Below, in pieces: positions 1 to 60,662 of a stretch of DNA of 64,000 nt; position 1 is the first letter of the stretch, and each line of letters begins with the position of its first letter. A program made the translations under genes and the position numbers. The notes beneath the pieces are model-generated. The model had not been told where the DNA came from. It saw only the letters and a list, made by a program, of their open reading frames with translations, and searched no databases. The DNA lies in NCBI RefSeq assembly GCF_963921235.1, contig NC_086097.1:70806001-70870000 (forward strand). Reading direction: 5' to 3'. This DNA is from Mobula hypostoma (lineage: Eukaryota).

Positions 1-1184
1 AAATTGGAGGCAAAGTTAATAAAGTCAACGAGCTCTGCATGCGAGCAGGAAGCAGCGTCAATGCAGTCATCGATGTAGCGAAGGAAAAGTGGGGGACAGA
101 TACCAGAATAGGCACGGAACATAGATTGTTCCACAAAGCCAACAAAAAGGCAGGCATAGCTAGGTCCCATACGGGTGCCCATAGCTACACCTTTAGTTTG
201 GAGGAGGTGGGAGGAGCCAAAGGAGAAATTATTAAGAGTAAGGACTAATTCCGCTAGACGGAGCAGAGTGGTGGTAGAGGGGAACTGATTAGGTCTGGAA
301 TCCAAAAAGAAGCGTAGAGCTTTGAGACCTTCCTGATGGGGGATGGAAGTATATAGGGACTGGACATCCATGGTGAAAATAAAGCGGTGGGGGCCAGGGA
401 ACTTAAAATCATCGAAAAGTTTAAGAGCGTGAGAAGTGTCACGAACATAGGTAGGAAGGGATTGAACAAGGGGGGATAAAACCGTGTCGAGGTATGCAGA
501 AACGAGTTCGGTGGGGCAGGAGCAAGCTGAGACAATAGGTCGGCCAGGACAGGCAGGTTTGTGGATCTTGGGTAGGAGGTAGAAACGGGAAGTGCGAGGT
601 GTGGGAACTATAAAGTTGGTAGCAGTGGATGGGAGATCCCCTGAGCGGATAAAGTCGGTGATGGTGTGGGAGACAATGGCCTGGTGCTCCTTAGTGGGGT
701 CACGATCGAGGGGTAAATAAGAGGTGGTATCCGCGAGTTGTCACTGTGCCTCGGCAAGGTAGAGGTCAGTACGCTGGACTACAACAGCACCCCCCTTATC
801 GGCGGGTTTAATAATAAGGTTAGGATTAGTGCGGAGGGAGTGGAGAGCAGAGCGTTCCGAAGGAGTGAGGTTGGAATGGGGACAAGGTGCGGTGAAGTCG
901 AGACGGTTGTTGTCCCGTCGGCAGTTAGCAATAAAGAGATCCAGAGCAGGCAGAAGACCAGAGCAGGGTGTCCATGAAGAAGAGGAGGGTTGAAGACGGG
1001 AGAAGGGGTCATTGGTGGGGGTGGAAGAGTCCTTGTCGAAGAAGTAGGCTCGGAGACGGAGATGGCGGAAGAAAAGTTCCGCATCGTGGCGAACATGGAA
1101 CTCGCTGAGGTGTGGGCGAAGGGGGACAAAGGTGAGGCCCTTGCTGAGAACTGAGCGTTCTGCCTCCGACAGTTGAAGGTCGGT
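1..1184 (-). mobile_element. Penelope-like retroelement, reverse transcriptase region (runs off the window start)
   Basis: The minus strand reads LSEAERSVLSKGLTFVP...IKPADKGGAVVV...FYLLPKIHK..GRPIVS...MDVQSLYTSIP...GVAMG...RYIDD, which are PLE RT motifs. There is one in-frame TGA near 741-743. Confidence 0.92.
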
Positions 1185-2019
1185 AAAGTACTAAGGTTGC
1201 TGGGTGATCGGAATTTTTCTGTACTGCATTCAAGCTCCTTGGTCGACTGTTCTCTTAAGAGCCTTATATGCTCCCTTCCAAACTGTGGGAACCTTGCCCT
1301 ATGTCTGCATGTTGAAGTGAGAAGCATAACAGTTTCGAGGTCTATCCAGATTGGGAGCTGAAATTTACTCAGCAATGGCAAATTGAGCTGATGTTTATTG
1401 AAAATTACAACACTCCAGCTTATGCAGTAAATGAGCTCACTTACCACTGCATAACTGTCTATTTAATAACATACTCAGTTCAGTATGTTACTCCAGTGAT
1501 TTATTTCAGACTTTTAAGTGTTAATGATCAAAACTAATAGGAGCTATTAAAAAGCCTTCAGCACAACATAAATTTTCTGGGGCAGTAAATTTTGCTGTTG
1601 TCACACTTTGTGTCTTTCCTTCATATCTATACTAATGGCAAATAGAGCTGGTTTTTCTGGTTCTCCTTAAATTTCATTTGGTCATGATGACAAAACCTCC
1701 CCTCTCTTGTCATGAATGAAGTCTCTCAGATCAGATTTCAGTGGAGAACTGTAAATTACTTTGAGAACTAGAAATTTATTCCAAAAATGTATACATCTAC
1801 TTTAGTTTCACTGCAGCAGTGAAGGTTTTTTGTCAGTTCTGGATTTTTTTTTTGTTCTTGGTTAAATGGGAAAGCCTATCTTTCCCATTTACTGCATATG
1901 GAAGGAATGAGGGAAGGAGGCGCCACCGAACAATATGACCAAGGGTGACATCCTTCAGACAGTTCATGAAAGTACTTCTTTAACTTCTTTTTCTTTCAAA
2001 TGTGGTCCTGCTACTGCTG

Positions 2020-3390: not shown

Positions 3391-6300
3391 AAGAACCTAT
3401 CAATCTCTGACTTAAATACACCCAACGACTTGGCCTTCACAGCTGCATGTGGCAACTAACTCAACAAAGTCACCACTCTTTGGCTAAAGAAATTTCTGCG
3501 CACCTCTGCTTTGAAAGGGCGCCCCTCTATCCTGAGGCTGTGCCCTCTGTCCTAGACTCTCTCACCATAGGAAACATCCTTTTTCACATCAACTCTGTCT
3601 AGTTTCAACATTCGAAATGTTTCCATGAGATCCCCTCTCGTCCTCCTGAATTCCAGCAAGTACAGACCCAGAACCATCAAACGTTCCTCGTATGATAACC
3701 CTTTCATTCCTGGAATCTCCTTGTGAACCTCCTCTAGACCATGTTTACCAAGATGAGGAGCCCAAAACTGTTCACAATACTCAAGGTGAGACCTTACCAG
3801 TGCCTTATAAAGCCTCAGCATCACATCCTTGCTCTTGTATTCTAGACCTCTTGAAATGAATGCTAACATGGCATATGCCTTCCTCACCACTAACTCAACC
3901 TGCAAGCTAACCTTCAGGGTGTTCTGCGCAAGGACTCTCAAGTCCCTTTGTATCTCAGATTCTTAGATTTTTTTCCCCGTTTAGAAAATAGTCTGCACAT
4001 TTATTTCTAATACCAAAGTGCATGACCATGCATTTTCCAACGTTGTATTTCATTTGCCACTTTCTTTCCCATTTTCCTAATCTGTCTAAGTCCTTCTGCA
4101 TCCCACCTGTTTCCTCAACACTACCTGCCCCTCCACCAATCTTCATATCATCTGCAAACGTGGTAACAAAGCCATCTATTCCATCATCTAAATCATTGAT
4201 ATACAGCATAAAAAGAAGTGGTTCCAACACTGGCCCCTGCAGAACAGCACTAGTCACTGGCAGCCAACCAGAAAAAGATCGTTTAATTCCCACTTGCTGC
4301 CTCCTACCAATCAGCCAATGCTCTAACTATGTTCATAACTTTCCTGTAATACCATGGGCTCTTAACTTGTTAAGCAGCCTCATGTGTGGCACCTAGTTAA
4401 AGGCCTTCTGAAAGTCCAAATATACAACATCCACTGCATCCCCTTTATCGTACTTGTAATCTCCTCAAAGAATTCCAACACATTTGCCAGGCAGGATTTT
4501 CCCTGAAGGAAACCATGCTGACTTTGTATTATCTTGTCCTGTGTCACCAAGTATTCCATCACCTCATCCTTAACAATTTACTCCAACACCTTCCCAACCA
4601 CTGAGGTCAGGCTAACTGGTCTATAATTTCCTTTATGCTGCCTTCCTCCTTTCTTAAAGAGTTGAGTAACATTTGCAATGTTCCAGTCTTCTGGCACCAT
4701 GCCAGAGTCCAATGATTTTTTGAAAGATCATTTCTAATGCCACCACAATCTTTAACGCTACCTCTTTCAGAACCTTAGGGTGCAGTTCATCTGGTCTGGG
4801 TGACTTATGTACCTTTAGGTCTTTCAGCTTTTTGAGCACCTTCTCTCTTGTGATAGTAACTGCACGCACTTCTCTTCCTCCACACACTACAACATCTGGC
4901 ACACTGCTAGTGTCTTCCACAGTGAAGACTGATGCAAAATACACATTTAGTTCATCAGGCATCTCCTTGTCCCCTGTTATTATTTCTCCTGCCTCATTTT
5001 CTAGTGGTCATATTTCCACTTTCATTTCTCTTTTATTTTTAACATACTTGAAAAACTTTTACTATCCACCTTGATAATATTTTCTAGCTTGCTTTCATAT
5101 TTCATTTTTTCCCTTCTAATGATTTTTTTCATTGCTCTCTGTAGGTTTTTAAAATCTTCCCAATCCTCTATCTTCCCACTAATTTTTGCTTTGTTGTATG
5201 CCCTTTCTTTTGCTTTTACAGTAGCTTTGACTTCCCTTGTTAGCCACGGTTGTACTATTTTACCATTTGTGTATTTCTTCATTTTTGGAATACACATGTC
5301 CTGCACCTTCCTCATTTTTCCCAGAAACGCACATCATTGCTGCTCTACTGACATCCCTGCCAGTAGCTCCTTCCAATTTACCTTGGCCAACTTCTCTCTC
5401 ATATAACTGTAATTTCCCTTACTCCACTGAAATACTGCTACATCAGACTTTACTTTTCCCTATCAAATTTCAAGTTGAACACAATCATATTGTGATCACT
5501 GGTTCCTAAGGGTTCTTTTACCTTAAGCTCTCTAATCGCCTTCCAATTCATTACATAACACCCAATCCAGTATAGTTGATCCCCTAGTAGGCTCATGACA
5601 AACTGCTCTAAAAAGCCATCTCTTAGACATTCAACAAACTCACTCTCTTGAGATCCATTACCAACCTGATTTTCCCAATCGACCTGCATGTTAAAATCTC
5701 CCATGACTACCATAACATTGCCCTTTTGACTTGCCTTTTCTATTTCCTGTTGTAAACTGTGGTCCACCTCCCAGCCACTGTTGGGAGGCCTGTATATAAC
5801 TGCCATCAACGTCCTTTTACCCTTACCTGGGAATCTTAATATTTCAATAAGTCATCCACCTTATTTCTTATACTATGCGCATTTAGATACAACATGTTGA
5901 GTACCATATTTGCTATCCTCTCTGACTCTGCATCCCTAATGATTTGATACTCAAGCCTGTTTGCTGCAACTAAGTCCCATCGCCCGCCTACCCTTCCTGA
6001 CAATCTACTGCACGTTATCTTTATTTTTTTACCATCTGTCCTGTCCTGAGTCCCTTCACTCCTGTTGTCCCCCTCTCCACTGCCAAGTTAGTTTAAACCC
6101 TCTCCAACAGCTCTAACAAATCTGCCTACGAGAATATTGGTCCCCATCAGGTTCAGATGCAGCCTGTCACTTTTGAACAGGTCATACTTCCCCCAGAAGA
6201 GATCCCAATTATCGAAGAACCTGAAGTCCTGCCCCCTGTACTAGCTTCTCTGCCACACATTTATCTGCCAAATCATCCTGTGTCTACCCTCGCTGGCGCA

Positions 6301-7344
6301 TGGCACAGGCAGCAGTCCAGAAATTACTACCCGGGAGCTCTTGCTTCTCAGCTTTCTACCTAGCTCTCTAAATTCTTTGTTCAGGACCTCACTGCTTTTC
6401 CTTCCTATGTCATTAGTACCAATATGTACCAAAACATCTGGCTGCTCCTCCTCCCTCTTCAAAATGTTGTGAACGCGATCTGAGACATCCCTGACCCTGG
6501 CACCTTGGAGGCAACATACCATCCAGCTGCCCCGTTCACGTCCGCAGAATCTTCTGTCTGATCCCCTCACTATCGAATCCCCTATCATTACCTCTCTCTT
6601 CTCTCTCTCTCTTTCCCTTCTGCACCATGGACCCATGCTCAGTGCCTGTAACCCAGTCGGTGTGGCGTTCTCCCGGGAGGTCATCCCCCACAAAAGTATT
6701 CAAAGCGGTATACTTGTTTTTGAGGGGAGTGGCCACAGGGGTGCTCTGCTCTAACTGTCTACTTTGAATAAGTGTACTTTGAATCTCTGAATCTTGAAGC
6801 TGATGCACTTGGCTGAATTGATCCCTGGTACCTTCCCCACTTTGAAAAAGTTGCTCAAATTGAATATGCATTGTGGCAGGGAATAAGGTGATCCTTTATA
6901 TATTTATGTAGTTGCTAATAAAGACACACAGATTCTGTGTATTATCCTGCCAAGTAGGAAAAACATTATTCAATTGGGAAAGAGCTCTGGGTATTGCTGT
7001 CATGACAACTGCACTGTAACACTGATTTGCTGTCATGGTGACCTTGATGCTCTCTTCATTATTCTGACATGCAGGTGACTTGACCTGACTGGTAGTGTGA
7101 AGCGAGACTTATGATAAGTTTCATGACATATAAGGAAATAGCAGTAATCTGTCATAGGTTTATTTAAAAAAATAGGTGGCAAATTATAAATTGAATCTGC
7201 TGTTTGCTATTTTGTTAGTACAGTGCAATAATACATAGATCACTGACTGATAAGCATCTGCAGCACATGAAGATCTTTAAGCTGGAGAATGCTATTGAAT
7301 TCTATTCAAAATAGAAAAAAATGCTTGCACTGAATTGACTTTCA

Positions 7345-8450: not shown

Positions 8451-10486
8451 ACCACCTTTTCCAAAGAGGAAGACAGAATTACAAAAGAAATGCCAGAAAT
8501 TTCAGTCAGGTGACCTCGTCCTCTTTGCCCTGTATTACTGAAGAAGAACATCATTTTACGTGCTATATTTTACCAAAAACTTTGCCAAATTTATGGACTG
8601 TGATGTTGTTCAAGTGCCCATGTTTAAGCATGCATGTATAGAGAGAGCAAAATTTGAGAAATTGTAAAAAAAAATTAACAAACCCTACTAGAGAATGTGA
8701 ATTCCAGGCCTAGTTTTAGAGAATGAAGTCAGGTACGTGGAATGGCATCATGGGGACTGTTTTGGTGGTAGAGATCACAGTTTAAATCGATAGAGCAAAG
8801 TATGTAAAAGACTGAGATCAGCAGCCCACTGTTGGGGTAAGATATGAATAAGCAAAGGTGGACTGGAGGCATTTCATTGAAAATAAATTGACGCCATGGC
8901 ATTGTCAGCTGTAGCTTTTGAATTTGGTCATGAATTTCAAAACTGAGGTTGGATTGCTGAAATGGCAATATTTGCTTTCGCGATCACTGAAGATAGCGAG
9001 CAGCTTGCCATCAATTTCCATAACTATGGTCTTGGATCTGCTGTGAGTTGCTAGATTTTAACTTGTAGCAATAGATTGAACAATGTTGAGACACATTTTT
9101 ACAAACATAATTAGTTGCTAATTAGTGATTAATTTGGGCATTGGGAACCTGCCGAACTGTGTGCATTGAAGTGCTGTCAGTGAACCACATTGTCTGCTCT
9201 TGCTCTGAACTTATGTGGAGGGACAAATACATCTGACTTAGCTGGCTATCAGTCCTCAACAAAGCTTTACATACACTTTCTCTGCTATGGCTTGTTTGCC
9301 TCAGCAAAACCATAAAAGAGGCATTGGAATAATGGAGAATATTCAAAAGGGTGATAACAAGGATTCAGATCAAATATCTTCCTACTCAGAAAAAGGGCAG
9401 GGCAACCTAATATAGATATACCTACATCTTACTTCACCTTATGGACATTAAGAAGCACATAGAGCAGGATAATATAAAAAAAAGGAAGCTGTGTTAGATA
9501 CATTACTGCATATGCATAGAACTGGAGAGGTTTACAAAATGCAGGTGTAAGATTGAAGGGGAGATTAGTAAATTAAGTGCATAGAAATGATCAGAAGTAA
9601 AGTCAATGAAAATCCAAAGGTGTTGATGGATATACAGGAAGAGGATAAAAAAATAAAAATATGAGTGCCTGTTAATGACTGGGAGTAACTGGTGTTCAGG
9701 GGCAGTCATTGCACCTGTTTCTAAATGAATACGTTGGATATAGCTTCAAAAAGTAAGTAAATTGTTAGGTCACTAAGTTGTATCCTAAGCTGTCAGTTGA
9801 AGTAGGGAAAAAAAGCAGTAGAGACTCCAGCTAACTTATTTCAATCCTCTATAGTTTCAGGCAGAGGTCTGGAAGACTGCCAATGTGGCACCATTGTTTT
9901 GAGAAGATGGATTCAACAACTGCAGGTGGTTGAGTAGAACATTGACAGTCATCATATTACTGGGAAAGTGTTTTGTGGACAGTGTAAATTGGCATTAAGA
10001 AAGGCACAGATTAACAAGGATAATTGGTTGTGAGTTAATGGAAGATTGTGTCTGAGAAACAACTGAATTTTAGAGGAGATAATGAGAAGAATCTATAAGG
10101 TTAACCTGAATTTCAAAGTTTTCCATGTGGATTTTAGCAATACATTTGACAAAATTGCAAATGACAGGGTGATTGGAAGAGTAAAATCCCTGTATAACTG
10201 GTGCATTAGGGGTCAGAAATCGAAACAAAGGAATACCAGTTTAATGAAGCCTGAGTTGTTTGGTGAAACAAAGGGGATGCATATTTTAGGATTGCTGTAA
10301 GTAATAGGAAGGAACTAAGAGTGGTAAAAAGCACATAAAAGATATATTCCATTATTAATGAAGTGTTGAGATTAAGAGTTGTGTAAGGACTCTAGATAAC
10401 ATTATAACACACTGGTCTATATAATACTAAAGGAGGTTACTGGGTTACAGAAGACCTGACACATGAAAATCTGACTTCATGCAAAG

Positions 10487-10665
10487 TTTCCCAGACTCTG
10501 CCTTCAGGTATGGTTCTCTAATTCTCCCAGACTCTGCTCTCAGGTATGGTTCTCTAATTCTCCTAGACTCTGCCTTCAGGTATGGTTCTCTAATTCTCCC
10601 AGACTCTGCCCTCAGATATGGTTCTCTAATTCTCCCAGACTCTGCTCTCAGCTGTGGTTCTCTAA
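10487..10665. repeat. Minisatellite, 36 bp unit, 5 copies
   Basis: Unit ttctcccagactctgc(ct/tc)tcaggtatggttctctaa. It explains the 12-aa periodic ORFs on both strands. Confidence 0.95.
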
Positions 10666-12386
10666 ACCAGGATATAAAGCAGGGATCACCCAGATATAAT
10701 AAAATGCCCTTTCCAAACTCTTCTTCAGGTAATATCAAATGTTACATACCCTAAATCACTTTTTGATAGCGCACACTTTGTTATTAAACGGCCGATAGTT
10801 TTCATGCTGATGAACAGACAGCTCCTCTTCATTTCTACCATCCCCAACCCCTTGCCTTCACTCCACACCTGGGCTGCATTCAGATAAGCATTTGTCAGTT
10901 CATGTGATGGTAACATTTCCTGTTATGATGATGCCAAAACATGGAACATGCCTTTGTTGCTTTAGTCAGCAACTCAGTTAGTAACATTTAGTTAGGTATC
11001 CATCACAGCTATATTCGCACTTGCTGAACATTGATAACAAAGGTAGTTCAAAATCCAGTGCTGACCTTCTACTGTTCGTAAATTAATCCTTACCAGCTGT
11101 TGAGGCTAAAGATTTTATTATTTTTCATTTCCAACTTAGAGAAAATTCAATTAATCTCAGGAATGGAACTTGCAGCAGGTACAGAGGCTACACGGGGGGG
11201 GGGGGGGGTTCTGCAGGACTTCAATGATTTCTGCCTCAGACTTGAGGTAGAAATCTTGATCAAAAACTTTCAGGTCATCTAAAAACTGTAGAAGAAAACT
11301 ACATGGCTGGAGGATAAGATCTTGAAAACATCTGACTAAAAACTTAAATTGGGACTGATTTATTCTTATCACCTTGATCTAAATAACCTCCCATCAACCA
11401 ATTACTTGAAACTATGCTTTGGTTTTGACAGCCTTTTTTTCTCAAGTGAGGACATACCTGTGATGAATACTTAGAGAGACTAAATGTTAAATTGAGTTGC
11501 TGAATAAAGCAGCAAAGCTGTGTTTCATGTTTTGGTATCATTATTTCTTCCCCACTTGCATCAATCTCCATTCGTCAACACTTTTCTGCTGTCAGCAATT
11601 TCTCTTGAGGCTGGTGAGAAAATCTCCATGTATGACATTGAATTACTGTATGCAGCTCAATTTTACCACTCAATAGCAGCCTGACTGCCGTGCACATTTC
11701 AAGACTGCTTCTGCTCAATGCAATTGAGTACACTCCCAACACTACATGGCTTGACTGCAGCATAATTGAGGCGTAAGGAAAGCATATTATCGGTAATAGG
11801 TCAATGTTAGTTTTTATTCCCCTGGCATGAGACTAAAATGTTTCAGCAGGTCATGGCTGTAGGCAAGTAAGTGTCAGATACTGGGTGAAAATAAATCCAT
11901 GTTTCAAGCCGTATGACTTAGTTTAGTGCAGTGCTGCACATTGATTATAAATGGATGAATGAATACTTAATATTATCTGTTTATGTCAAGCCTCAGAGCT
12001 ACAATTTCACACCAGCTCTGAGAAGTAGATTTTGTACAATGGCTCTAATCTTAAGAACAGTGTGAAACCCCATTTTTAAGAAACCACTCTTGACAGCAAC
12101 AAATGGCACCACATGGTCTGGTTTTACACTGCAGCTGCCATACTTCTTGCGATGTTTATTTCAAACTGGACAGCAAAAAAATCAGATATTACCAGAAAAC
12201 AAAATTATAGTGTTTTGCATGCAGTACACAAATGGTTGTGATAAATTCACGGCATTTGATATATTCTGATGCCACCCCATTCAAACTTAAGTGGCCGTTA
12301 AACTTACTGAATCACAATGGTTTACGAAGGAGTTTCTGGGAGTGGTGCTTTGTGCTCTTTTGAATTCTTCTCAAATTGGTAAAATA

Positions 12387-12876
12387 CACCTTATATTCCG
12401 TCTGAGTAGCCTCCAACCTGGTGGCGTGAACATTGACTTCTCTAACTTCGGTTAATGCCCCTCCACCCCTTCGTACCCCATCCCTGATTTATTTATTTAT
12501 TCATTCATTCATTCCCCCCCCCATTTCTTCGCCCTCTTTTTTTTCTCCCTCTGTCCCTCTCACTATAACTCTTTGCCCGCTCTCCGGGCTCCCCTCCCCG
12601 CTTCTTTCTCCATAGGCTTCCCGTCCCATGATCCTCTCCCTCCTCCAGCCTTGTATCCCTTTTGCCAATCAACTTTCCAGCTCTTAGCTCCATCCCTCCC
12701 CCTCCTGTCTTTTCCTACCATTTCAGATCTCCCCCTCCTCCTCCCACTTTCAAAACTCTTACTATCTCTTCTTTCAGTTAGTCCTGACGAAGGGTTTCGG
12801 CCTGAAACGTCGACTGTATCTCTTCCTATAGATGCTGCCTGGCCTGCTGCGTTCACCAGCATTTTTGTGTGTGTTG
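12387..12876 (+). mobile_element. Penelope-like element 3' end (end of GIY-YIG ORF, pyrimidine-rich UTR, hammerhead motif)
   Basis: HLIFRLSSLQPGGVNIDFSNFG* is followed by a C/T-rich tract and gtcCTGACGA..GAAAcgtcgac. Confidence 0.88.
12779..12816 (+). ncRNA. Minimal type I hammerhead ribozyme motif (PLE-associated)
   Basis: agtc-CTGACGA(12784-12790)-agggtttcggcct-GAAA(12804-12807)-CG-TC-gact. Stem I is agtc/gact, there is a stem II hairpin, and the GUC cleavage triplet ends at 12811. Confidence 0.75.
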
Positions 12877-13029
12877 TCAGAATACATATCACAGCTTGAC
12901 CCTACTCAGCAGCTAGGTCACAAATTAGGGTTGGTTCATAGAACTTTCAGCCAAACATCAAATTCTTAGTGAAGAGTCTCAGAAATTCTTACCATATCTC
13001 AAATAGAACATATAATATATCCCTAAAGC

Positions 13030-13149
13030 AATGTACACAAAATGCTGGAGGAACTCAGCTGGTCAGGCAGCATTCTGACCTGCCGAATTCCTCCAACATT
13101 TTGAATATGTTGTTTTGGATTTCCAGCATCTGCAGAATTTCTCTTGTTT
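13030..13149. mobile_element. Miniature fold-back Penelope-terminus derivative with 15 bp TSD
   Basis: aaaatgctggaggaactcagctggtcag is followed by its inverse ctgacctgccgaattcctccaacatttt. It is flanked by atatatccctaaagc at 13015-13029 and 13150-13164. Confidence 0.8.
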
Positions 13150-13829
13150 ATATATCCCTAAAGCTGCACAGAACTGGTGTGAAGTTATTTCATGGGAAAA
13201 AACCCTGGCATTTTTGAAGTGTAGTATGTAGAGAATGTGGCTAGTTTTGCTGCTATTTGAAGCCAGGCAGTGTATGATCTAGCTGGTGTTCATCCAAGCT
13301 GCTAGTTTTTGGCTTTGTTACTTAGGGATTCCTGGGGACTCAACCATTTGGGCAATAGCCAGCAGGTTTTCTGATCTGTAGAAGGTGCAATCAAGGGGAG
13401 TTATATAAGTTAGGTAGGAGGAGGCCCTTTCACCATATTGTTGTACTTTGTGACCTGGAAGTTAAGGACATTCAAAACTTTTCACCATTTGAGGTGATTT
13501 TTGTGAAGCAGCCAGAAGACTCTGGAAACAAGCATGAGACATGCATTTTAGGATCAGTCAGGTGACTGGCCTGATCAAATCAAAGTATTCTGGGGCTGGA
13601 GGATAGATGCATTGTGAGGGTAGAGTTTTGCTGGTGCTGGAGATTGTTGAGTAAGATTGACTCCAGTATGCCATAGCTGATTTTGACAGATGCTTAACAA
13701 TAAATATATTTTAAAATATAGTTGAATGATAGTGTTGCCAAATTGTTATAAAATACTATATTACAGAAAAGCTGTATTTGTAGTTTTTGTTTGGAAGTTT
13801 GAAGTGTTACCTGTTTTGTGCCAATTTAA

Positions 13830-14018
<189 letters not shown>

Positions 14019-14534
14019 TAACGTCAATTTATTTTTTTCGTTGCTCGTAATCTGATTAAGCATTACAAAATGATTTCATGCTGATGAATCTGATACTGAT
14101 TCATGATCTTGATTCATAACTTTTATTCTGTTGTGTTGGTGGAAGTAACTTTTTAAAAAGTGCCATGGAAATACTCTACAGTAGCTATTACATGGTATTA
14201 TTGTATACATTGATTTTGAGGACAAGCAATCAAAACCTATCCAGCAATTTCACAAGATCATGTGCTGATTATAGTTAAGCCAGCTTTTTCTTGCTTTAAT
14301 TATCAAGATAGATCCTAGCATTTCTATTCAGTACAATCCAAGTATTTTATAAAGGCTTTGCCCTATGAGATTTTTTCATATCTCCTCATGGTTACGCATT
14401 TTATGACTATTCAGTCAATCATGTAACCAGTCCTGGATATTTTATCAAATCCCTGTAATTCAGAATTAGAAGATTACTTTTTTGATTATAAACACAGGGT
14501 TTTCCACAAGCCACGTGATTATCATTTCTTCAAA

Positions 14535-19092: not shown

Positions 19093-19230
19093 GGCAGAGT
19101 TAACGTATGAGGAGTGTTTGATGGCTCGGAGCCTGTACTCACTGGAGTTTAGAAGAATGAGGGGGTATCTCATTAAAAGCTATTGGATATTGAAAGGCCT
19201 GGATTGGGTGGATGTGGAGAGGATGTTTCC

Positions 19231-19355
19231 TAAACACAAAATAATCTGCAGATGCTGGGGTCAAAGTAACACTCACTGGCCCGAAACGTCGATTGATCTT
19301 TTCCACTGATGCTGCCCGACCTGCTGAGTTCCTCCAGTGTGTTGTGAGTGTTGTT
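19231..19355. mobile_element. Miniature inverted Penelope-terminus derivative with 14 bp TSD
   Basis: Flanked by gagaggatgtttcc at 19217-19230 and 19356-19369. It contains an antisense terminus followed by a sense ggcccgaaacgtcga..gatgctgcccgacctgctgagttcctccag. Confidence 0.85.
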
Positions 19356-19542: not shown

Positions 19543-22500
19543 TGTCACAACCACGGATTTGGCAGCGCAGCAGATACGGCAACTCTGCTCGTGAATATGC
19601 ACGTGTCAGCTGATTATTATTTCATTGTGATAGTATTCAACTCCATTCATTCCATCGTAGTGTTTGTCAAGAATTGGACACAGCACAGCAACGCTTTGCT
19701 ACCTGTTTGTATTCGGCCTCGCCTGAGAAATTGAACTGTCGAGTCAACTGACTCTGAAGACTAGCGGTATTCGTTTTATATTTAGTTGTTCTTTTCACCC
19801 GCCGTGTAGGCTTCGTTTTCCATTTGAGAGTTTTAGTTAACAGCCCTGTTTGGCCTAGCGTTTATTGTTTTCTTTTCCCTTTAATACTGTTTGCATTAAA
19901 GTCTGTGAACTATTGACCCGCTTCAGTATCTCTCAGTCCGCACTTGGGCCAAATCCGAACCATGTGAAAGCAAGTCTCGACCACACAAAGATGGACCCAG
20001 CGGAGAGAGAGCAGCTGACCTTGGCCATGAGATTCATCGGTCAGAGTGATTCGTTGAGGCAACAATATTCCATTGGAATTCCTATGTATAAACTCTTGTT
20101 TCTGGCTCCAGTGTGAAAGAAGGCTCTTGCCAAGTAATGGACACAGCGAAGTTTGAAGAGTGATGTTTTGACATTGGTGGCTTGAGGAGAGGGTGCCTTC
20201 TATCCTCAGTGCATGTCCTGACTCAAAATTCTGAGAGTCCTGAGTCTACATTCCGAGCTTCTCAAGTCTATATAGTTTCTCCAGTATCCATTCCAAGCTT
20301 TTCAAGTCACAAGTACCCAGGTTCCCAGCTTTGTGGTCCCGTGATTCAGGTCTGCATAACAAATGAGTACTTCAAGCAAGCTTTTCAATTGATTCAACGA
20401 ATCACCATTTAAATCAATAGTGTAATTTTTGGAACAGTCCTTCTCCAAAAGCTGATTCCTGCCTGGAGTGTGCAAATACACAAGTAAAGTAACCCTATTA
20501 AGAGTATTTTTAACGTCTTGATGAAAGTCATTGTACAGACTGGGAAAATTGAACTTCCATGCCACAAATTTACAGAGAACCAGCTAGCTTAGAGATGAAA
20601 GAAACCTGTCTAGGCTGTCTTGATCTGGAAAAATGAGAGTATATCTTAATTGCCTCTGGAAAAAATTATGGAAGATTAAAAACAATGAGTAAGATTTGAA
20701 AAGGTTCCTTCTCTAGGTTTCAAGTTTCATGTTTTCAAGGTTTCCCAAGGACTTTTTTCTATGTTCCCAAGGTTTTTTCTCGATTGTTTCCCAGGCTTAT
20801 TCAATGTGTTTAGGGTTTTTCAATGTCCTCCCATCTCAAGGACTCCCAAGCCTCCCTCGGCCCCACCCAAGATTTTTTGATCTCACTTGAGGTTCCCTAG
20901 TGTGTCAGTCTGTTGGGGTTTCCTGGTCTCTCAGTCTGTCTTGATCCCCAAGTCTTTCTGCCTCTCGAGTTTCCCATGCCTCCCTTTCATTCCCCATGCC
21001 TCCCTCTCAAGTTCCCCAGGTCTCTTGAGTCGTCCCTGGATCTGAAGTTTTCAGGTCTTCCTGGGCCATCAGGTGCCAGCTATTGGGAGGGGGCATCAGA
21101 GAGCTTTGGGCATCAGAGGGCATCAGAGAGCAGTGGGCTGTGAGGTTTTTCATCATCAGCATCAGGTGCCATGCCCAGTTTGAGCATTGACTGCCATGGC
21201 CCACACACTCCTGTTTCGGGTCAAGTGGATCAATTCATTGGTATTCTTTTTCAGTTCTCTAGCTGCTGTCTCCATCATTATTTGTCTTTGTCTTCCTCTT
21301 GCTTTCTTCCCTTCAATCTTTCCCATAATTACTGTGCATTCTAACTCCTCTTTCCAAATCACATGTCCAATGAAGTTACCTTGCCTTTTCATGATCTCAT
21401 ACATTATTTCTGTTTTTTTGTTTGCTCCGTTCATGACATCCTCGTTAGATATTCGTTTTGTCCATGATTTTCTTTGCAACCTCCTCAAAAACCACATCTC
21501 TGCTGCTACAATTCGTTTCCTCATGTTACTAGATATTGTCCAACATTCTGAGCCATATAACATAACTGGATGAATGTAACATTTCAGTTCTCTGAGGCGG
21601 ATTGTCATGCCTAGTTTAGTAATGGTCAGTATACTCTTCATTCTCGTAGAGGTGTCTTTTGCCATCCCTATTCTTTTTTTGATGTCCATGTTGCACCTGC
21701 CATCTGATGTCACCCAGCTTCCTAAGTAGCAAAAGTTCTGTACTTGTTTGATATCTTCCCCATTTATTCTCAGCCTGCAGATAAGATTCTCCTTTGTGGA
21801 ATTCACCATACATTCAGTCTTTTTGCAATTGATAGATAGACCCATTTTTGCACTTTCTTCAACAATTTTAGAGCACTGAATTGGATAATTGTTGCTTCAC
21901 AACAGTTATTAATGGTATAAGAGTTCCTTGTATTTTTCTCGAGCAGCTCGCTCTTTGTAACGTGGTTTCCTGGTGCATTCTGTTCAAATTTGTTAAGTTT
22001 ATTTTGATAGGCTCAGGGATTCTGTGTTAGTTTTATTGTTGAAACAGATGCCCGATTAGCTCCAATCGGAGGGTCCTCATTTTGAGAATGATTTTTCTCA
22101 ACGGTGTCACTTGGTCGAGCTACCTCTGTTTAAGCTCTTGTTTCTGTCTTTACATGGAAGTCTTTGGCTCCAATACTGGCAGTACACCCCATGGCACTTA
22201 TCTGTCAGCATCACTGAAGGACATCTTGGACAAGTCCCTCATCCAGGACTTCCAGCGGACACACATTTGTGTCGCCTCAGGGGCTGCACCTAGAGAGGGG
22301 GGCCCTGTCACATCCACAGGTTCGGGAGCACAGCAGCTATGGCAATTGCACTCGTGAATATACATGTGTTAGCTAATTATTATTTAATTGTGGTAGTATT
22401 TAACTCCATTCATTCCGTTGTAGTGTTTGTCGAAACTTGGGCACAGCGCAGCAATGCTTTGCTGTCTGTTTGCATTCGGCCTGGCCTGCGAAATTGGATT

Positions 22501-23619: not shown

Positions 23620-24003
23620 AAGACACAAGCAGATGCTGGGGTCAAAGCAACACACACAAAACGCTGGAGGAACTCAGCAGGTCGGGCAGCATCCATGGAA
23701 ACGGAACAGTAACGTTTCGGGCCGAGACCCTTCGTCAGGACTGAAGAGGGAGGGGGCAGGGGCCCTATAAAGGTGGTGGGGGGAGGGTGAGAAGGAGAAG
23801 GCTGGTAGGTTCCAGGTGAAAAACCAGTAAGGGGAAAGATCAAGAGGTGGGGGGGGGGAAGCAGGGAGGTGATAGGCAGGAAAGGTGAAGGAGGAATAGG
23901 GGAAAGCACAATGGGTAGTAGAAGGAGGCGGAACCATGAGGGAGGTGATAGGCAGCTGGAGGAGGGGGCAGAGTGAAACTGGGATTGGGGGAGGGAGGGG
24001 GAG
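23620..24003 (-). mobile_element. Penelope-like 3' terminus with hammerhead motif
   Basis: The minus strand has a pyrimidine tract then CAGTC-CTGACGA-AGGGTCTCGGCCC-GAAA-CGTT-ACTG (23707-23743). Confidence 0.85.
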
Positions 24004-26149: not shown

Positions 26150-27112
26150 TGTGGGTGAAACACCGCCTCATCTGGAAGAACTGTGTAGGGCCAGAATGGT
26201 GGTGAGTGAGGAGAGGTAGGGGCAGGTGTAAGAGTTATCATGGTTTCAGGGATGAGTGCCAGGAGGGAGGTTGGTGGGGACAGGCAAATGCACAAAGGAC
26301 TCATTGAGATAGCTTGTCACTGTGGGAGGGTGGGGGCTGGGGGGGAGGGAAAGATGTGCCTGATAGTGGGATCCCATATGAAATGTTGGAAGTTGCAGGA
26401 ATGAGGTGTTAGATGCAGAGGCTCTTGGGGTGGTAGTGAGGACAAGGGATGCGGCGCAAATTTGGAGACTGCTTTTGTCGAGCACTTTCGATCCATCATT
26501 TTGTCTAGATCACTTATTGCATCTGGTGCCCCTCTCCACTGGTGAGACCTGCCCAGAATGAAGTACCACTACATTGAGTACCTTTGATCTGTCCACTGCA
26601 GTAGCTTGTAGCCACCCATTTCAATTCCATTTCCCATTCCCATAGCAAAATGTCTGTCCATGGCCTCCTCTACTGCCACCCTTCTTTATTTTCTTTCATT
26701 TTGGTGGCCCTCTCACCTCGTCCCTTCCCCTGTCCTGTCTTCGTGACCTGCCCATCACCTCCCTCTGGTTCTCCCTTTATCCCATAGCCTACTGTTCCCT
26801 CTTCTCAGATTCTTCTTTTTTCAGCCCTTTACCTCTTCTGTCTGTCACCTCCTAGCTTTTCAAGTCATTCCTTTTCATATCTCCTCCCCTACCCACCTAC
26901 CTTCCCCCTCACCTATCACCTGCCAACTTGTGCTGCTCCCCTCCTCCACTTTTTTATTCTGGCTTTTGCCCCCTTTCTTTCCAGCCCTGATGAAGCTTCT
27001 CAGCTCAAAACATAATTGCAATTTACCTCCATAGCCACTGCCTAACCTGATTTCTCCAGCATTTTAATGTGTGTTGCTTGAGATATCCAATATCTGCAGA
27101 ATTTCTTGTGTT
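26150..27112. mobile_element. Degenerate Penelope-like element with inverted 5' segment
   Basis: 26150-26450 reads on minus as LVLT....NFQHFIWDPTIRHIFPSPP (post-RT linker). 26515-27112 reads on plus as a GIY-YIG remnant, a pyrimidine tract and a decayed CTGATGA motif. Confidence 0.7.
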
Positions 27113-27980: not shown

Positions 27981-29822
27981 TAGTTTTTTCTTTCCCTGGG
28001 CTTCCAAACTACGTACTGACTGCAGGGCAGAAATATTGGCCATCATCAAGCAGGAGACTAGATCTCATTACATTGCTCTTCAAACTACAGGCACAATGAT
28101 TTGTCATATCCTTTGCTTAATTGTGAACAAGTGCTCTGGGATATTTTGAAATCTAAGTAAGCCATTATTAGATTGCTAATTGTTCCATATTTCAAAGTGA
28201 TAATCTGCTCAGTCTATGCTGTGCAGTTTCTGGCCTCCCAGATTAACAGTGCTCTGCCATCACAGACACATGCAGCATATGCAGTGAAATATCAAAATCT
28301 TTCAATGAGACTCCTTTAGATGAAGCTTAAATGAATGGCATATCAGTGTGCATTTAGCACTAAATATTTCTTTATCTTTGGCCAAAATCACGTTATTTAA
28401 AAGAAGGATAGACGGGTCTGTGTACGAGGTTAACTATTATTCCCAACTGCCCAGCCTTAATTTAATTGCAGGAAATAGAATAAAAATTGATGCAAAATCA
28501 AGATACTGTGTGTGCTGGAAATCTGAAATAAGACTAGAACCTTCTAGAAGTTCCAGTCAGATCAATGGCATCCTGTGGAAGCTGTACTGCTGTGTTTGGG
28601 TAGGGAAACAGGAGTGTGGACAAAGTGACATCTTTACATTATGACCCCCTGGTGGTGAGAGTGAAGATTTAACCTACAGTGTAATGTTACTGTACATCTT
28701 GCAGAAATGCTTCGGTAAACTTAACAGATTCTGAATTGAAAACACGGAGGAATATGCTCGACAAAATGAGGAATCTAAAAGGAGACAGGAATTAATTCTT
28801 TGCAGAATATTATGAACACCAGTCCAATTCTCTCCATATGATCGAACCAACATGAATAAGAGGAGCAATTATTCTGGCAGGATCATTTTGAGGATGTCCC
28901 CTTCACTGCATAGGTGCTGGAATAGGCCATTCAACTCCTTGAACTGATTTTGTTGTTTCATTAGAAAATATCACTTTTTTATTATTTATTAATTTTTTGT
29001 TATCTTTGTACCACTACTGCCCTTGTTCTTGGTGGTAGAGTTCTTGGGTTTGGCCAGTAGTGTCAGAGCAACCTAGGTAGATAATTACAGACGGTACACA
29101 GTGCAGCTACTGTGCACTGTGGATGATGGGAATCAATATTTATGATGGTTGATGGAACTTTAGTCAAGTAGGATGTGTTCTCCTGGATGGTGCTGAGCTT
29201 CTTCAGTGTTGTTAAATTTGTACTCATCCAGGGAAATGGATGCTCCTGACTTGTGCTTGTAAATGTTGGAAAAGGTTGGTGTGTCAGGAGGTGAGTCATT
29301 CATTACAGACTCTGTCTGCTCTTCAAGCCACAGTATATATTTGACTGGCCCCTCGTGGGACGTGGACATTATTGACTTTAGTGGCATGTCTGTTACTTTC
29401 CATCTAGCAGCTCATGCCTGAATACTCTCTGGTTATGGACTACTTCGGGAAATCGACATTGTGGACTTATCAGTGATCAGTACTGCCCTGAAGAATTACA
29501 GTGTCGCCATTGGCTTGGAAAATTGGCAAGCAGCAAACTTTATCACTTCCTTTTGTATGAGATCTGATGGTACCGCTTAGAACATTTTTCTTATCAGTGT
29601 CCATTTACTTAAGTTTTATCAGGATTTCTTGATAAATTCAGTCAAATTCTGCCTTGATGTCACTCTTGGAATCCAGCTCTTTGCTTCATGTTTGAAGCTG
29701 AGAGGAGCCAAGTAGTTCTATCAAAATTGAACGTGGGCATGAGTGAGCAAGTTATTGATGAGAAAGTGCCACTTGGAAGGTGTGATTGGCAGTGATATCT
29801 TTATTTAACTGATAATTGAAAA

Positions 29823-30245
29823 TAAACACGAGATTCTGCAGATGCTGGAAATCCAGAGCAACACACACACACAAAACACTGGAGGAATTCAGCAGGTCAG
29901 GCAGCATCTATAGACAGGAATAAACAGTTGATATTTTGGGTCAAGATTCTTCTTCAGGACTAGAAGGGAAGGGGGAGAGGGAAAAGGCAGAATAAGAAGG
30001 TGGGGGGAGTGGAAAGAGAACAAGATGGAAGGTGATAGGTGAAACCAAGTGTGGGATAAGATAGGTGAGTGGGGAAGAGGGGATCAGTTGAGAAGCTGGA
30101 AATGATAGGTGGAAGAGGTAAAGGGCTGAGGAAGAAGAAATCAGATAGGAGAAGAGGGTGGATCATGGGAGAAAGGGAAGGTGGAGAGGCATCAGGAGAT
30201 GATAGGCAGCTGAGAAGAAGAGAAGGGGTAAGAGGGAAGTCAGAA
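29823..30245 (-). mobile_element. Penelope-like 3' terminus, decayed hammerhead
   Basis: aaacacgagattctgcagatgctggaaatcca..ctggaggaattcagcaggtcaggcagcatc followed by a purine tract, as at 23620-24003. Confidence 0.8.
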
Positions 30246-33200
30246 TTCTCCACTAATTTAAAGTAGACCTGGTAATGGTTAAAAGCCAAATGACACTTGC
30301 TATGTTTTTTGCGAACAGGGCATAGCAGGCCAACAGTCTACATTGTCAGGTGGATATCAGTGGTGTAACTTTACTGGAACAGCTTGGCTCAAGGGTCAGT
30401 TCATTTCTAGAGTATGGGGCGGTTGGTGTTCAGTATCATTGCTGGACTGTTATCTGGATGTAGTAAATCACATTGCATGAATTGTCAACACCTGTGATTG
30501 CAAGAATCTCACCATGAATTTTCCACTCAACTCTTCCGACAACAACTCTTTCCAACAACTCTTCCTTGCCTTTTACACTTATATACTGGGCTCTGGCATC
30601 ACTGAAGATGGGGATTTCTTGGATATTTAAATTGTACTCTGTTTGCCCATCTCAAACTCATTTTTTCCTCACCAAGAATGATCAAATATAGCTCTGAAAT
30701 TTTCCATTGACTGATGGACTGTGTTTTTAATCATTCACCTTATCAGCAGGGCATATAAACCCCAGATACATGGTCATAAATATTGCCTGTCTCACACATT
30801 AATGTTTGAAGGCACGGATACTAATTAGTATTTTCATATTTCAGCCACTGTTATGAACAAAATTTGTTTTGGCAATAAGAACATCACTGTCACATTAATT
30901 GAGGAGAAGAGTGGGCAGACAATCAGGAATTCATGTCTGGAACACAGCCTTGGTCCAAACATGGACATATCAGCTGAATTACAGACTTGAAAGCAACTGC
31001 TGTTCACAGCATGCAGCATTTTACAGTGTGACATCATGGTACTCTGGTAAAACTGAGGTCAGTAAATATCAAAAGGAAAACATTTGAGTGGTTGGAGTCA
31101 TCCTTTGTACAAAGGGAAATGGTGATTACTGAAGATTAAAAATTTCAGTTCCAGGGCTCCTGTAGGAGTTCCTTAGGACTGTATTCTGAACTAGCTGCTT
31201 CATTAATGACCTTCCCTTCCACATATGATCTGAAGTGTCCTTTTAGCATATCTGTAGAAATTGAGATGTTTACTGAGTGCATTTCAATATCATTTTTAAA
31301 AAAACAGATAATGACAGAATAACTGGCAAATGGCATTCTTATTACTTTTGGTCCAATTCTGTCTTCATCTTATTAGGCTGTTCTTTGGGATCAAGGGCGA
31401 GTTGCACCTACTCTGTTCATTGGTTCTGAGGTGGCTAATAAAGGACATATTGTGGGAACTTCAAAGGCTTCTACAGATGGGGCAGGAGATGGTGGGGTGG
31501 TGGATGGGCTATGGGCTGTGAGCTTGTTCACTCCTATGCTGCTTACATGGGGGCATTTCTTCAAGCCCATAATTTGAGCACATCTGTCAGTGCAATATCT
31601 CCATTCCTCTGGTAATCTCTTCCAGAGTATCTGTTTTGGGGGTCTGGAGTGGGGCATCAGAGCAACAACGTATTTAAATGACAGCAAATAGAGCCCTGGA
31701 GAGGATGCTGACATTGATTCTCTTACCCTTCTAATGAATTTGGAGGATATTGAAAAAAGAACATTGGCATTTTCTTTCCAGTGCCTTTTGGATGCATGCT
31801 ATAAATAGTGAGGTCTCAAAAGCATATACATTATCTGGTGAGATCCCACTTGGAATATTGTTTACAAGTCTCGTCTTTCTACCTAAGGACAGATACACTT
31901 GTCCACAGATTGATTCCTGGGGCAATGGTTATGAGAAGAGGTTATACAGACAGAGCCAAAAATCTCTAGAATTTAGAATAATGAGAAACAATGTCATTGA
32001 AGTAAACAGACTTATTACAGAGCTTAAAATGTAGATGTAAAGATGGTGTATTTCCTGCACATCCAGGGGCACAGTCTCAAAATAACCTCTCTTGAATGTA
32101 CACTGTGATTGAGTATCCGCAGCCCTCTTGTATACAGAATTAGATTTTCTTTTTTCCCCAGGTGAAGAAGTATCTTTCTCTAGAGAATCATTGGATATGT
32201 TGTTAATCCAGAAAAGTGGACCTATGTTAAAATAAAAATCAACCGTTACCTTATTGAATGGCAGACAAGATGCAAGGGTCAGTATGAGCTGTGAAATTGC
32301 AGATGCTGGAATCTGGGGCGATAAACAATCTGCTGGATGACCTCAGCGGGCTGTGGGAGGAAAGGAATTGACATTTTGGATTGAAACTTTGCATCAGTTC
32401 TGAAGCAGGGTTTTGACCTACAACATCCTCCTCCAGAAACTGATCAACTCAGAATCCAATTCCTCCTGCATTTATGTCTTTTTGTTTTTATCGTGTCTTA
32501 TGTAATATTAATGTTGCTGCCAAGATCAGTGCTTTGTTCCTTAACATGGCAGTAGCAAGCACTTGTCATAATCTGTTTGAAGTCAGGATAGACTACTTGT
32601 CTGAGATATTCTTCCCCTAGAGTCAGTGCAGCTGGAACACTGGGCTTGTGCTTGGAGAAGATTGCCCCATATTCACTTGAGCTTAGAAGAATGAGATTTG
32701 GATTTTTAAAAATGCATTGCACAGTACCGCTGCCACAAAACAACAAACTTCACAACGTGCATCAGTGATAATAAACCTGATCTGATTCTGAATTTATTGA
32801 GACATGCAAGGTTCTGAGACAGATTGACTAAGCTGATGTCAAGAGGCTGTTTGTGTAGGCTAGAGACTGAAGAACTCTAACCAAAGTTTGCATCAGTGTT
32901 GCAAAAAGCATGTTAGTTAAATCGGTGGTCTACTGCCATTTCTCATGGTCACTAGTTAGACGTTCAGATGCTGAAAGCATTTTTCCATTATTAATAGGGT
33001 AAGTATTTACCCAGCTCGTTGGGAAGAATTTCCAAAAAGACCACGATCCAAACTGCAGCATGAGGTAGTTGTTTACTTTAAACTGGTGATTTTAAGAGTT
33101 TACTGTCATAGATTGGGTTTTCAGTAATTTTCATGTTATTGTTTAGACAAATCTGAAATACATTAACAGTGAAAGCTCCCCGTGGACCTGCAAGATTTAG

Positions 33201-45554: not shown

Positions 45555-45785
45555 AACACAAGACAAACGTAACTGCAGATGCTGGATATTCAGAGTAATA
45601 CATACAAAATGCTGGAGGAACTCCGCAAGTCAGGCAGCAACATGGAGAGGAATAAGCAGATGACATTTCGAGGTGTGACTTTTCTGTGGTACTAATGAAG
45701 GACCTTGACCTGAAATGTCGACTGTTTATTCTTCCCCATAGCTGCTGCCTGATCTGCTGAGTTTCTCCAGCATTTTGAATGTTAT
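45555..45785. mobile_element. Fold-back Penelope-terminus derivative
   Basis: Antisense arm aaaatgctggaggaactccgcaagtcaggcagc..acatttcg, then sense arm tgaaatgtcgac..gctgcctgatctgctgagtttctccagcatttt. Confidence 0.8.

Positions 45786-60347: not shown

Positions 60348-60662
<315 letters not shown>

What the first reader, a model, noticed from the sequence alone, without database searches (positions are those of the whole stretch)
12779..12816. Intact minimal hammerhead ribozyme in the sense strand of the PRKD1 pre-mRNA, ~1 kb upstream of a coding exon
Seen: a complete core CUGACGA / GAAA / GUC with stem I (agtc:gact), a stem II hairpin and only ACGU for stem III. Established: Penelope-like elements carry such minimal type I hammerheads, which are thought to cleave as dimers via the palindromic stem III. 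Inference: this copy is transcribed within the host intron and could self-cleave, perhaps by pairing with another sense copy (partial ones near 19277, 44570 and 45700).
Basis: partly seen in the sequence, partly recalled or inferred. Interest (0 to 1): 0.7.

Follow-up and report, generated by a model that had tools for sequence, protein, structure and literature searches.

The report
Penelope retroelement hammerhead inside PRKD1 intron
The small self-cutting RNA motif is real, but it is part of a recently inserted scrap of a very common jumping gene that happens to lie in a PRKD1 intron of a cartilaginous fish, and nothing suggests it cuts or controls that gene's RNA.

Summary
The motif is real. 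It is the only full minimal-hammerhead match in the window (2 of 500 shuffles give one) and the top hit (E 1e-5) of a model built from unrelated Penelope elements. It lies sense in the PRKD1 intron before the exon at 13875-14013. It is not a gene-specific device: it sits near the 3' end of a 490-bp, 5'-truncated Penelope-like (RT + GIY-YIG) insertion of a very high-copy family. The insertion is missing at the same site in two related organisms (flanks about 94-95% identical), so youth explains the intact core. This copy has G-U where 29 of 30 relatives have G10.1-C11.1, and its predicted fold locks the core in a competing helix (P 0.97). The three partial copies proposed as partners lack a working enzyme half, so they cannot cut it, and they lie in the next intron. 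Published minimal hammerheads of this class are inactive as monomers and weak as dimers; one cleaves only with the element's protein. No cleavage was measured here. The scan noted the same family many times elsewhere in this genome and in others. Verdict: ordinary new copy of a known kind.

The parts
12386..12877 (+). 5'-truncated Penelope-like retroelement insertion (end of ORF, pyrimidine-rich 3' region, hammerhead, tail)
   Evidence: Contigs of two other organisms join the two flanks with only 20 and 5 letters between, where the window has 506 and 490. Hundreds of family contigs per DNA run continue upstream of 12386 as loose ends.
12386..12455 (+). last ~22 codons of the Penelope RT/GIY-YIG ORF, ending in TAA 12453-12455
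   Evidence: Best of 127,882 six-frame positions for a profile of the C-termini of 25 full-length relatives (score 20.7, next 11.6). Single-sequence tblastn was weak (E 0.32) and a longer HMM did not detect it.
12456..12777 (+). pyrimidine-rich tract ending in CAG just before stem I; possibly the element's own intron and 3' splice site (inference)
   Evidence: Sequence. In D. virilis Penelope the intron end maps to the 5' end of helix I (PMC4209133).
12779..12783 (+). stem I, 5' strand
12784..12791 (+). catalytic core C3-A9 plus the extra nucleotide typical of Penelope minimal hammerheads
   Evidence: extra nucleotide in 26 of 30 hits in related loci
12792..12803 (+). stem-loop II, closed at the core by G-U instead of G10.1-C11.1
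   Evidence: G-C in 29 of 30 related hits
12804..12811 (+). G12-A13-A14-A15.1, palindromic ACGU (stem III possible only between two copies), C17; predicted cut after 12811
12812..12816 (+). stem I, 3' strand
12817..12877 (+). element tail shared by the other family copies in the window
13875..14013 (+). PRKD1 coding exon downstream of the insertion (host gene context)
   Evidence: a 987-nt contig of a probable RNA run lies on 13873-14013 only, as an internal piece

Best explanation
The motif is the minimal hammerhead carried in the terminal repeat (pLTR) of a Penelope-like retrotransposon. Reverse transcription starting near the element's 3' end and stopping early left a 490-bp truncated copy in a PRKD1 intron (shown: element identity, truncation, empty site in relatives; inferred from the literature: the reverse-transcription route). 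The copy is young, so most of its core has not yet decayed; one CpG of the motif probably already has (C11.1 to U, inferred). It is transcribed passively with the intron (inferred from orientation). As a lone copy it cannot form stem III, its core folds into a competing helix, and no competent partner lies near it. It therefore cleaves rarely or never before the intron is removed, and has no role in PRKD1 expression (inferred; not measured).
For: Empty site in two organisms and probable presence in a closer one. ORF C-terminus directly upstream. Same architecture at the ends of relatives: 30 descriptor hits in 80 Penelope loci, 29 of them sense to the ORF. Summed depth 1.9-5.3 million over the motif against about 5-25 in most flank bins of three DNA runs, with 75,540-91,925 records laid (not a copy number). 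Eleven family fragments with E below 1e-5 in this window alone, the other hammerhead-spanning ones damaged, several at CpG positions. CpG observed/expected 0.60 in the insertion against 0.29 in the window. Predicted open-core fraction 0.001 or lower in all four contexts folded. Active-dimer penalty +10.5 kcal/mol, the worst of 9 natural motifs compared. Literature: monomer inactive and dimers low (PMC4209133); anole Poseidon hammerhead cleaves only with protein, with no RNA-seq ends at the site (PMC11167929); natural hammerheads N79/N107/N117 in a zebrafish intron reduce mRNA less than 3-fold (PMC11856399).
Against: All catalytic core bases are present, and the C-to-U change also allows an alternative A-U/G-C/G-C register (predicted P 0.02). 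Nearest-neighbour folding ignores the tertiary contacts of the core, and all 8 comparison motifs also score positive (+1.1 to +9.9), so the energies rank but do not exclude activity. Whether U11.1 is decay or a subfamily trait was not resolved: the per-base table for the repeat was cut. The part of this intron upstream of the window is unseen and may hold intact sense copies. Family RNA appears abundant, so trans partners may exist. No cleavage assay or read-end data were available.
Confidence: 0.86

Rival explanations
1. The copy is cut at a low but real rate in vivo, as a trans dimer with another intact family RNA or a second nascent PRKD1 transcript, or when the element's own protein refolds it, but with no selected effect on the host gene.
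For: Core complete. The anole Poseidon hammerhead is protein-assisted in vitro (PMC11167929). Dimers of minimal hammerheads show low activity (PMC4209133). The family is heavily represented in a probable RNA run.
Against: G-U at 10.1-11.1; core-sequestering helix; stems of only 4-5 bp to hold a trans complex; no RNA-seq ends at the site in anole.
Confidence: 0.09
2. The hammerhead has been domesticated as a regulator that cuts the PRKD1 intron co-transcriptionally and tunes mRNA output, as proposed for the conserved amniote intronic hammerheads or shown for the CPEB3 ribozyme.
For: Sense orientation, about 1 kb before an exon. Precedents in PMC6155905 (passages) and PMC10274809 (abstract).
Against: Absent from the orthologous site in two organisms whose flanks differ by only about 5-6%. 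No stem III and no Rfam hammerhead match. The flanking element sequence is as well preserved as the core, which youth explains.
Confidence: 0.02
3. The insertion affects PRKD1, if at all, through its strong-looking 3' splice site (pyrimidine tract ending in CAG 12775-12777), not through cleavage.
For: The tract is at least as pyrimidine-rich as those of the two true acceptors in the window (about 18, 16 and 15 of 20, windows offset by one base for two of them).
Against: The nearest GTRAG donors are at 13614 and 13651, more than 830 nt away. No such joint appears among the 15 joints displayed (605 more were not shown).
Confidence: 0.02
4. The motif is a chance match with no ribozyme ancestry.
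For: No Rfam hit; the 38-mer does not fold unusually well (z -1.59).
Against: 2 of 500 shuffles; model hit E 1e-5; same position and strand bias in related elements.
Confidence: 0.01

Closest known systems
Minimal hammerheads (min-HHR) in the pLTRs of metazoan Penelope-like elements (Cervera and De la Pena 2014, PMC4209133; parts 1-2 of 4 read, supplements not seen)
   Same: Type I topology, 4-5 bp stem I, extra nucleotide between 9 and 10.1, palindromic 15.2-16.2 with no loop 3, position after an RT/GIY-YIG ORF end, mostly single dispersed copies from truncated elements.
   Different: This copy has G-U at 10.1-11.1 and a short 4-bp stem II with two wobbles. The vertebrates named in the parts read are bony fishes, coelacanth, Xenopus, turtle and snakes, not sharks or rays.
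Poseidon element of Anolis carolinensis, PAc (Frangieh et al. 2024, PMC11167929; parts 1-2 of 4 read)
   Same: RT + C-terminal GIY-YIG element with a hammerhead in the pLTR and a short tail past it at the ends of genomic copies.
   Different: PAc activity was measured (protein-assisted only); here nothing was measured. Clade assignment to Poseidon was not tested by a tree.
Non-LTR retrozymes (bioRxiv 10.64898/2026.07.22.740005; part 1 of 5 and passages read)
   Same: Type I hammerhead derived from Penelope pLTRs; reported in one chondrichthyan; many copies lie in introns (42-44% in two Xenopus species).
   Different: Retrozymes are defined by two or more tandem units with complete hammerheads; this is a single unit that still carries the ORF end.
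Domesticated intronic ribozymes: RECK/CTCL/DTNB hammerheads (PMC6155905, passages) and CPEB3 (PMC10274809, abstract)
   Same: Ribozyme motif sense in an intron of a vertebrate gene.
   Different: Those are conserved across many species; this one is lineage-specific, lacks stem III and matches no Rfam hammerhead family.

Membership tests
Penelope minimal hammerhead motif (min-HHR) | Core CUGANGA, GAAA and UH at the cut site | tested here: met
Penelope minimal hammerhead motif (min-HHR) | Stem I of 4-5 bp and a stem II hairpin, type I topology | tested here: met
   Complementarity present; predicted P 0.87 and 0.86 in the 38-mer but 0.001-0.37 in the three longer contexts
Penelope minimal hammerhead motif (min-HHR) | [quoted passage not shown] | tested here: met
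   A at 12791; 26 of 30 related hits have one
Penelope minimal hammerhead motif (min-HHR) | Palindromic 15.2-16.2 with no real stem III | tested here: met
   ACGU 12807-12810; palindromic in 28 of 30 related hits (palindromes were preferred in tie-breaks, so this count leans high)
Penelope minimal hammerhead motif (min-HHR) | Highly conserved (not invariant) G10.1-C11.1 pair | tested here: not met
   G-U here; G-C in 29 of 30 related hits, G-U in 1, and G-C in 15 of 15 aligned. Hence filed as a copy by descent with one damaged position, not as a proven active ribozyme.
Penelope minimal hammerhead motif (min-HHR) | Located in the terminal repeat after an RT/GIY-YIG ORF, on the ORF strand | tested here: met
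   329 nt after the ORF stop; 16 of 30 related hits lie 105-873 nt after the ORF match
Penelope minimal hammerhead motif (min-HHR) | Self-cleavage as a dimer or with protein | not testable with these tools
   needs a bench assay; only contigs, no raw reads, were available
Canonical type I hammerhead (Rfam families) | Match to a curated model; formed stem III | tested here: not met
Domesticated intronic ribozyme | Conserved at the orthologous position across species | tested here: not met
   empty site in 2 of 3 other organisms laid
Non-LTR retrozyme | Two or more tandem units each with a complete hammerhead | tested here: not met
   single complete motif in the window

The most novel reading that the evidence does not exclude
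When the Penelope protein is expressed (for example in the germ line or under stress), it switches on cleavage of intact sense copies such as this one. A recently inserted retroelement scrap would then conditionally cut PRKD1 pre-mRNA, as one node of a genome-wide, protein-inducible set of intronic cut sites in cartilaginous fishes.
Probability: 0.04. Interest if true: 0.7.

Novelty: new member of a known kind. Interest (0 to 1): 0.1.

Why it matters
As found, it matters little: one more copy of a described retroelement motif. Its only extra value is as a dated insertion with known empty sites and unique sequence 66 nt past the cut site, which makes it a clean locus for asking whether Penelope minimal hammerheads ever cut in vivo, a question the papers read leave open. 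If such copies did cut host introns, very many insertions in shark and ray genomes would become potential regulators of host transcripts.

Tried and rejected
No whole genome is held for this window, so no genome-wide count or sense/antisense test could be made. An exact 35-nt family pattern found nothing in metagenome contigs. Pfam did not recognise the short ORF pieces of the window, and an HMM of the last 120 residues of relatives missed the 22-codon ORF end; a 20-column profile found it. No RNA holder was listed for the stretch. The probable RNA run showed no cover of the unique flanks next to the insertion, which says nothing either way. Contigs cannot show RNA ends; 12812 is not among the 24 loose-end places displayed of 2,201, which is too partial to count. 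No target-site duplication was found for this insertion. A model hit at 29484-29528 (E 0.014) lacks the family sequence (not) and was set aside as chance. Two papers were checked for the effect of G-U at 10.1-11.1 and gave no data (PMC2837043, PMC544870; passages). Lunse et al. on dimer cleavage is not held; it is known here only through the review PMC6765202 (passages), and it and the supplements of PMC4209133 may hold rates that bear on activity. Searches for PRKD1 + hammerhead, hammerhead + cartilaginous fish + Penelope and Penelope + stingray returned 0 papers; Penelope + elasmobranch returned 4, none about this by title. Most subscription papers are not searched.

Full report
Observation. 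Stem I is 12780-12783 with 12812-12815 (plus a U-G pair), the core CUGACGA is 12784-12790, an extra A follows at 12791, and stem II is 12792-12795 with 12800-12803. GAAA is at 12804-12807, the palindrome ACGU at 12807-12810 and C17 at 12811. A descriptor demanding all these parts finds only this site on both strands of the window, and 2 of 500 dinucleotide shuffles give any hit. Rfam has no match at either threshold. The exon at 13875-14013 is PRKD1: Pfam Ubiquitin_PRKD1_N and 100% identity over 46 residues to PRKD1 of several sharks, skates and rays. The next exon starts at 60367. A contig of a probable RNA run of the same organism label lies on 13873-14013 only, as expected of a spliced mRNA. 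The motif is therefore sense, intronic and 1,064 nt before the exon.

What it belongs to. The motif is near the 3' end of an insertion spanning about 12386-12877. Its first 70 bases are the last codons of a Penelope ORF. A profile of the C-termini of 25 full-length relatives (26 of the 54 proteins were taken as 700 aa or longer after leaving out P0032 and P0054; one truncated row was then dropped) ranks position 12384 first of 127,882 six-frame positions (20.7 against 11.6 for the next). A single tblastn hit was weak (E 0.32) and a longer HMM missed it. The relatives were reached through the Penelope reading frame at the start of the window, whose closest matches are Hemitrygon, Hypanus and Mobula proteins (81-90% identity); a full-length relative carries RVT_1 and GIY-YIG domains. 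In 80 metagenome loci encoding relatives, a looser descriptor gave 30 hits, 29 on the ORF strand in 26 loci; some loci are near duplicates. Of the 30, 26 have the extra nucleotide, 29 have G10.1-C11.1 and 28 a palindromic stem III. A covariance model from 15 of these 30 (those with a four-base palindrome, near duplicates left out) finds the window motif first (E 1.1e-5) and the antisense family copy at 23707-23743 second. Stems I and II covary in that set, but they were part of the selection, so this is not independent. These are the features Cervera and De la Pena list for Penelope minimal hammerheads (PMC4209133, parts 1-2 of 4 read).

Age and abundance. Four runs were laid on 12200-14100. 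In X10 one contig covers 12200-12371 and then 12878-13134 with 20 letters between; in X13 one covers 12202-12387 and 12878-13064 with 5 letters between. Both are empty sites, in organisms whose flanks differ from the window by about 5-6%. In X5 (about 2% different) a contig runs from the left flank to 12415, 28-30 letters into the element. That suggests a shared insertion but falls just short of the tool's bridging rule. The insertion is thus lineage-specific and young, in line with its retained CpGs (observed/expected 0.60 against 0.29 for the window). Summed depth over the motif is 1.9-5.3 million against about 5-25 in most flank bins; this is no copy number but shows a very high-copy family. 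The window itself holds 11 family fragments with E below 1e-5 (model built from seven of them). Earlier notes of this scan report tens of thousands of intact copies in this genome; I could not count them, as no genome is held.

Could it cut? The core is complete, but four points weigh against it. (a) The pair closing stem II at the core is G-U, seen in 1 of 30 relatives. The position is CpG in three other window copies, so deamination is a likely cause, though a subfamily trait is not excluded. (b) The predicted fold pairs G5-G8 with C15.2-C17 (P 0.965 in the 38-mer). The open-core form has P 0.001 there and less in 61-, 141- and 401-nt contexts. (c) The active dimer lies 10.5 kcal/mol above two monomers, the worst of 9 natural motifs compared; the other 8 range from +1.1 to +9.9. 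These energies omit tertiary contacts and only rank. (d) The proposed partners cannot act as enzyme. The copies at 19278 and 44562 lack CUGANGA, the one at 45690 has G5 changed to A, and a fourth sense copy at 26985 has lost G12. Three of them could be substrate strands for this copy, not the reverse, and all lie in the next intron. The unseen upstream part of this intron, a second nascent transcript or other family RNAs could still supply a partner.

Literature on activity. A Schistosoma minimal hammerhead showed no cleavage as a monomer and low cleavage as dimer or trimer (PMC4209133); a review says the same (PMC6765202, passages). The anole Poseidon hammerhead cleaves only when the element's protein is added, is dispensable for insertion in vitro, and left no read ends at the site in RNA-seq (PMC11167929, parts 1-2 of 4). 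In a zebrafish intron only the engineered T3H48 gave strong knock-down; N79, N107 and N117 gave less than 3-fold (PMC11856399, passages). Penelope clades without hammerheads proliferate well (PMC8557442, passages). The paper by Lunse et al. on dimer cleavage and the supplements of PMC4209133 were not seen and may refine the rates.

Verdict. The best reading (0.86) is a passenger: the terminal-repeat hammerhead of a young truncated Penelope copy, transcribed with the intron and cleaving rarely or never. Low-level trans or protein-assisted cleavage without host effect is possible (0.09). A domesticated regulator (0.02) fails the conservation test that marks the RECK-type intronic hammerheads (PMC6155905, passages) and lacks the measured kinetics of CPEB3 (PMC10274809, abstract). 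No paper on this locus or on these motifs in cartilaginous fishes came up, but a 2026 preprint reports Penelope-derived hammerhead repeats in one chondrichthyan (passages). It is a new copy of a known kind; interest is low.

Noticed in passing
window 13030-13149: Short inverted-repeat insertion made of two opposite tails of the same Penelope family, flanked by a 15-bp target-site duplication (13015-13029 and 13150-13164). Contigs of X10 and X13 run into it, so it seems older than the hammerhead-bearing copy. The same inversion joints recur in dozens of contigs of each DNA run.
   Followed up: partly
window 19230-19354: Family copy with an inverted 5' piece and a 14-bp target-site duplication; the forward part begins inside stem II.
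   Followed up: partly
window 1-1190, minus strand: Penelope reverse-transcriptase reading frame with an in-frame stop, running off the window start; 90% identical to a Mobula protein over 314 aa.
   Followed up: partly
window 26338-27110: Older Penelope remnant: inverted ORF fragment, GIY-YIG fragment, pyrimidine tract and a dead hammerhead lacking G12.
   Followed up: partly
window 23646-23751 and 29864-29973, minus strand: Antisense family copies; the first keeps the core and G10.1-C11.1 but has U at 17 and a broken stem I, the second has lost G12.
   Followed up: yes
window 45573-45784 and 32325-32427: Further inverted arrangements of family tails.
   Followed up: no
window 12784-12812: The motif holds four CpGs (12788, 12798, 12808, 12811), three at core or cut-site positions, so methyl-C decay should disable copies quickly; several damaged copies show such changes.
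   Followed up: partly
window 10484-10665: 36-bp tandem repeat of about five units.
   Followed up: no
window 3552-6900, 21162-21896 and 48896-49330, minus strand: Fragments that look like other non-LTR retroelement reading frames; family names would be from recall and were not tested.
   Followed up: no
L043:641-700, L047:5295-5340: Hammerheads beside Penelope ORFs that have a real stem III and no extra nucleotide, i.e. canonical monomer-type motifs among otherwise minimal ones.
   Followed up: no
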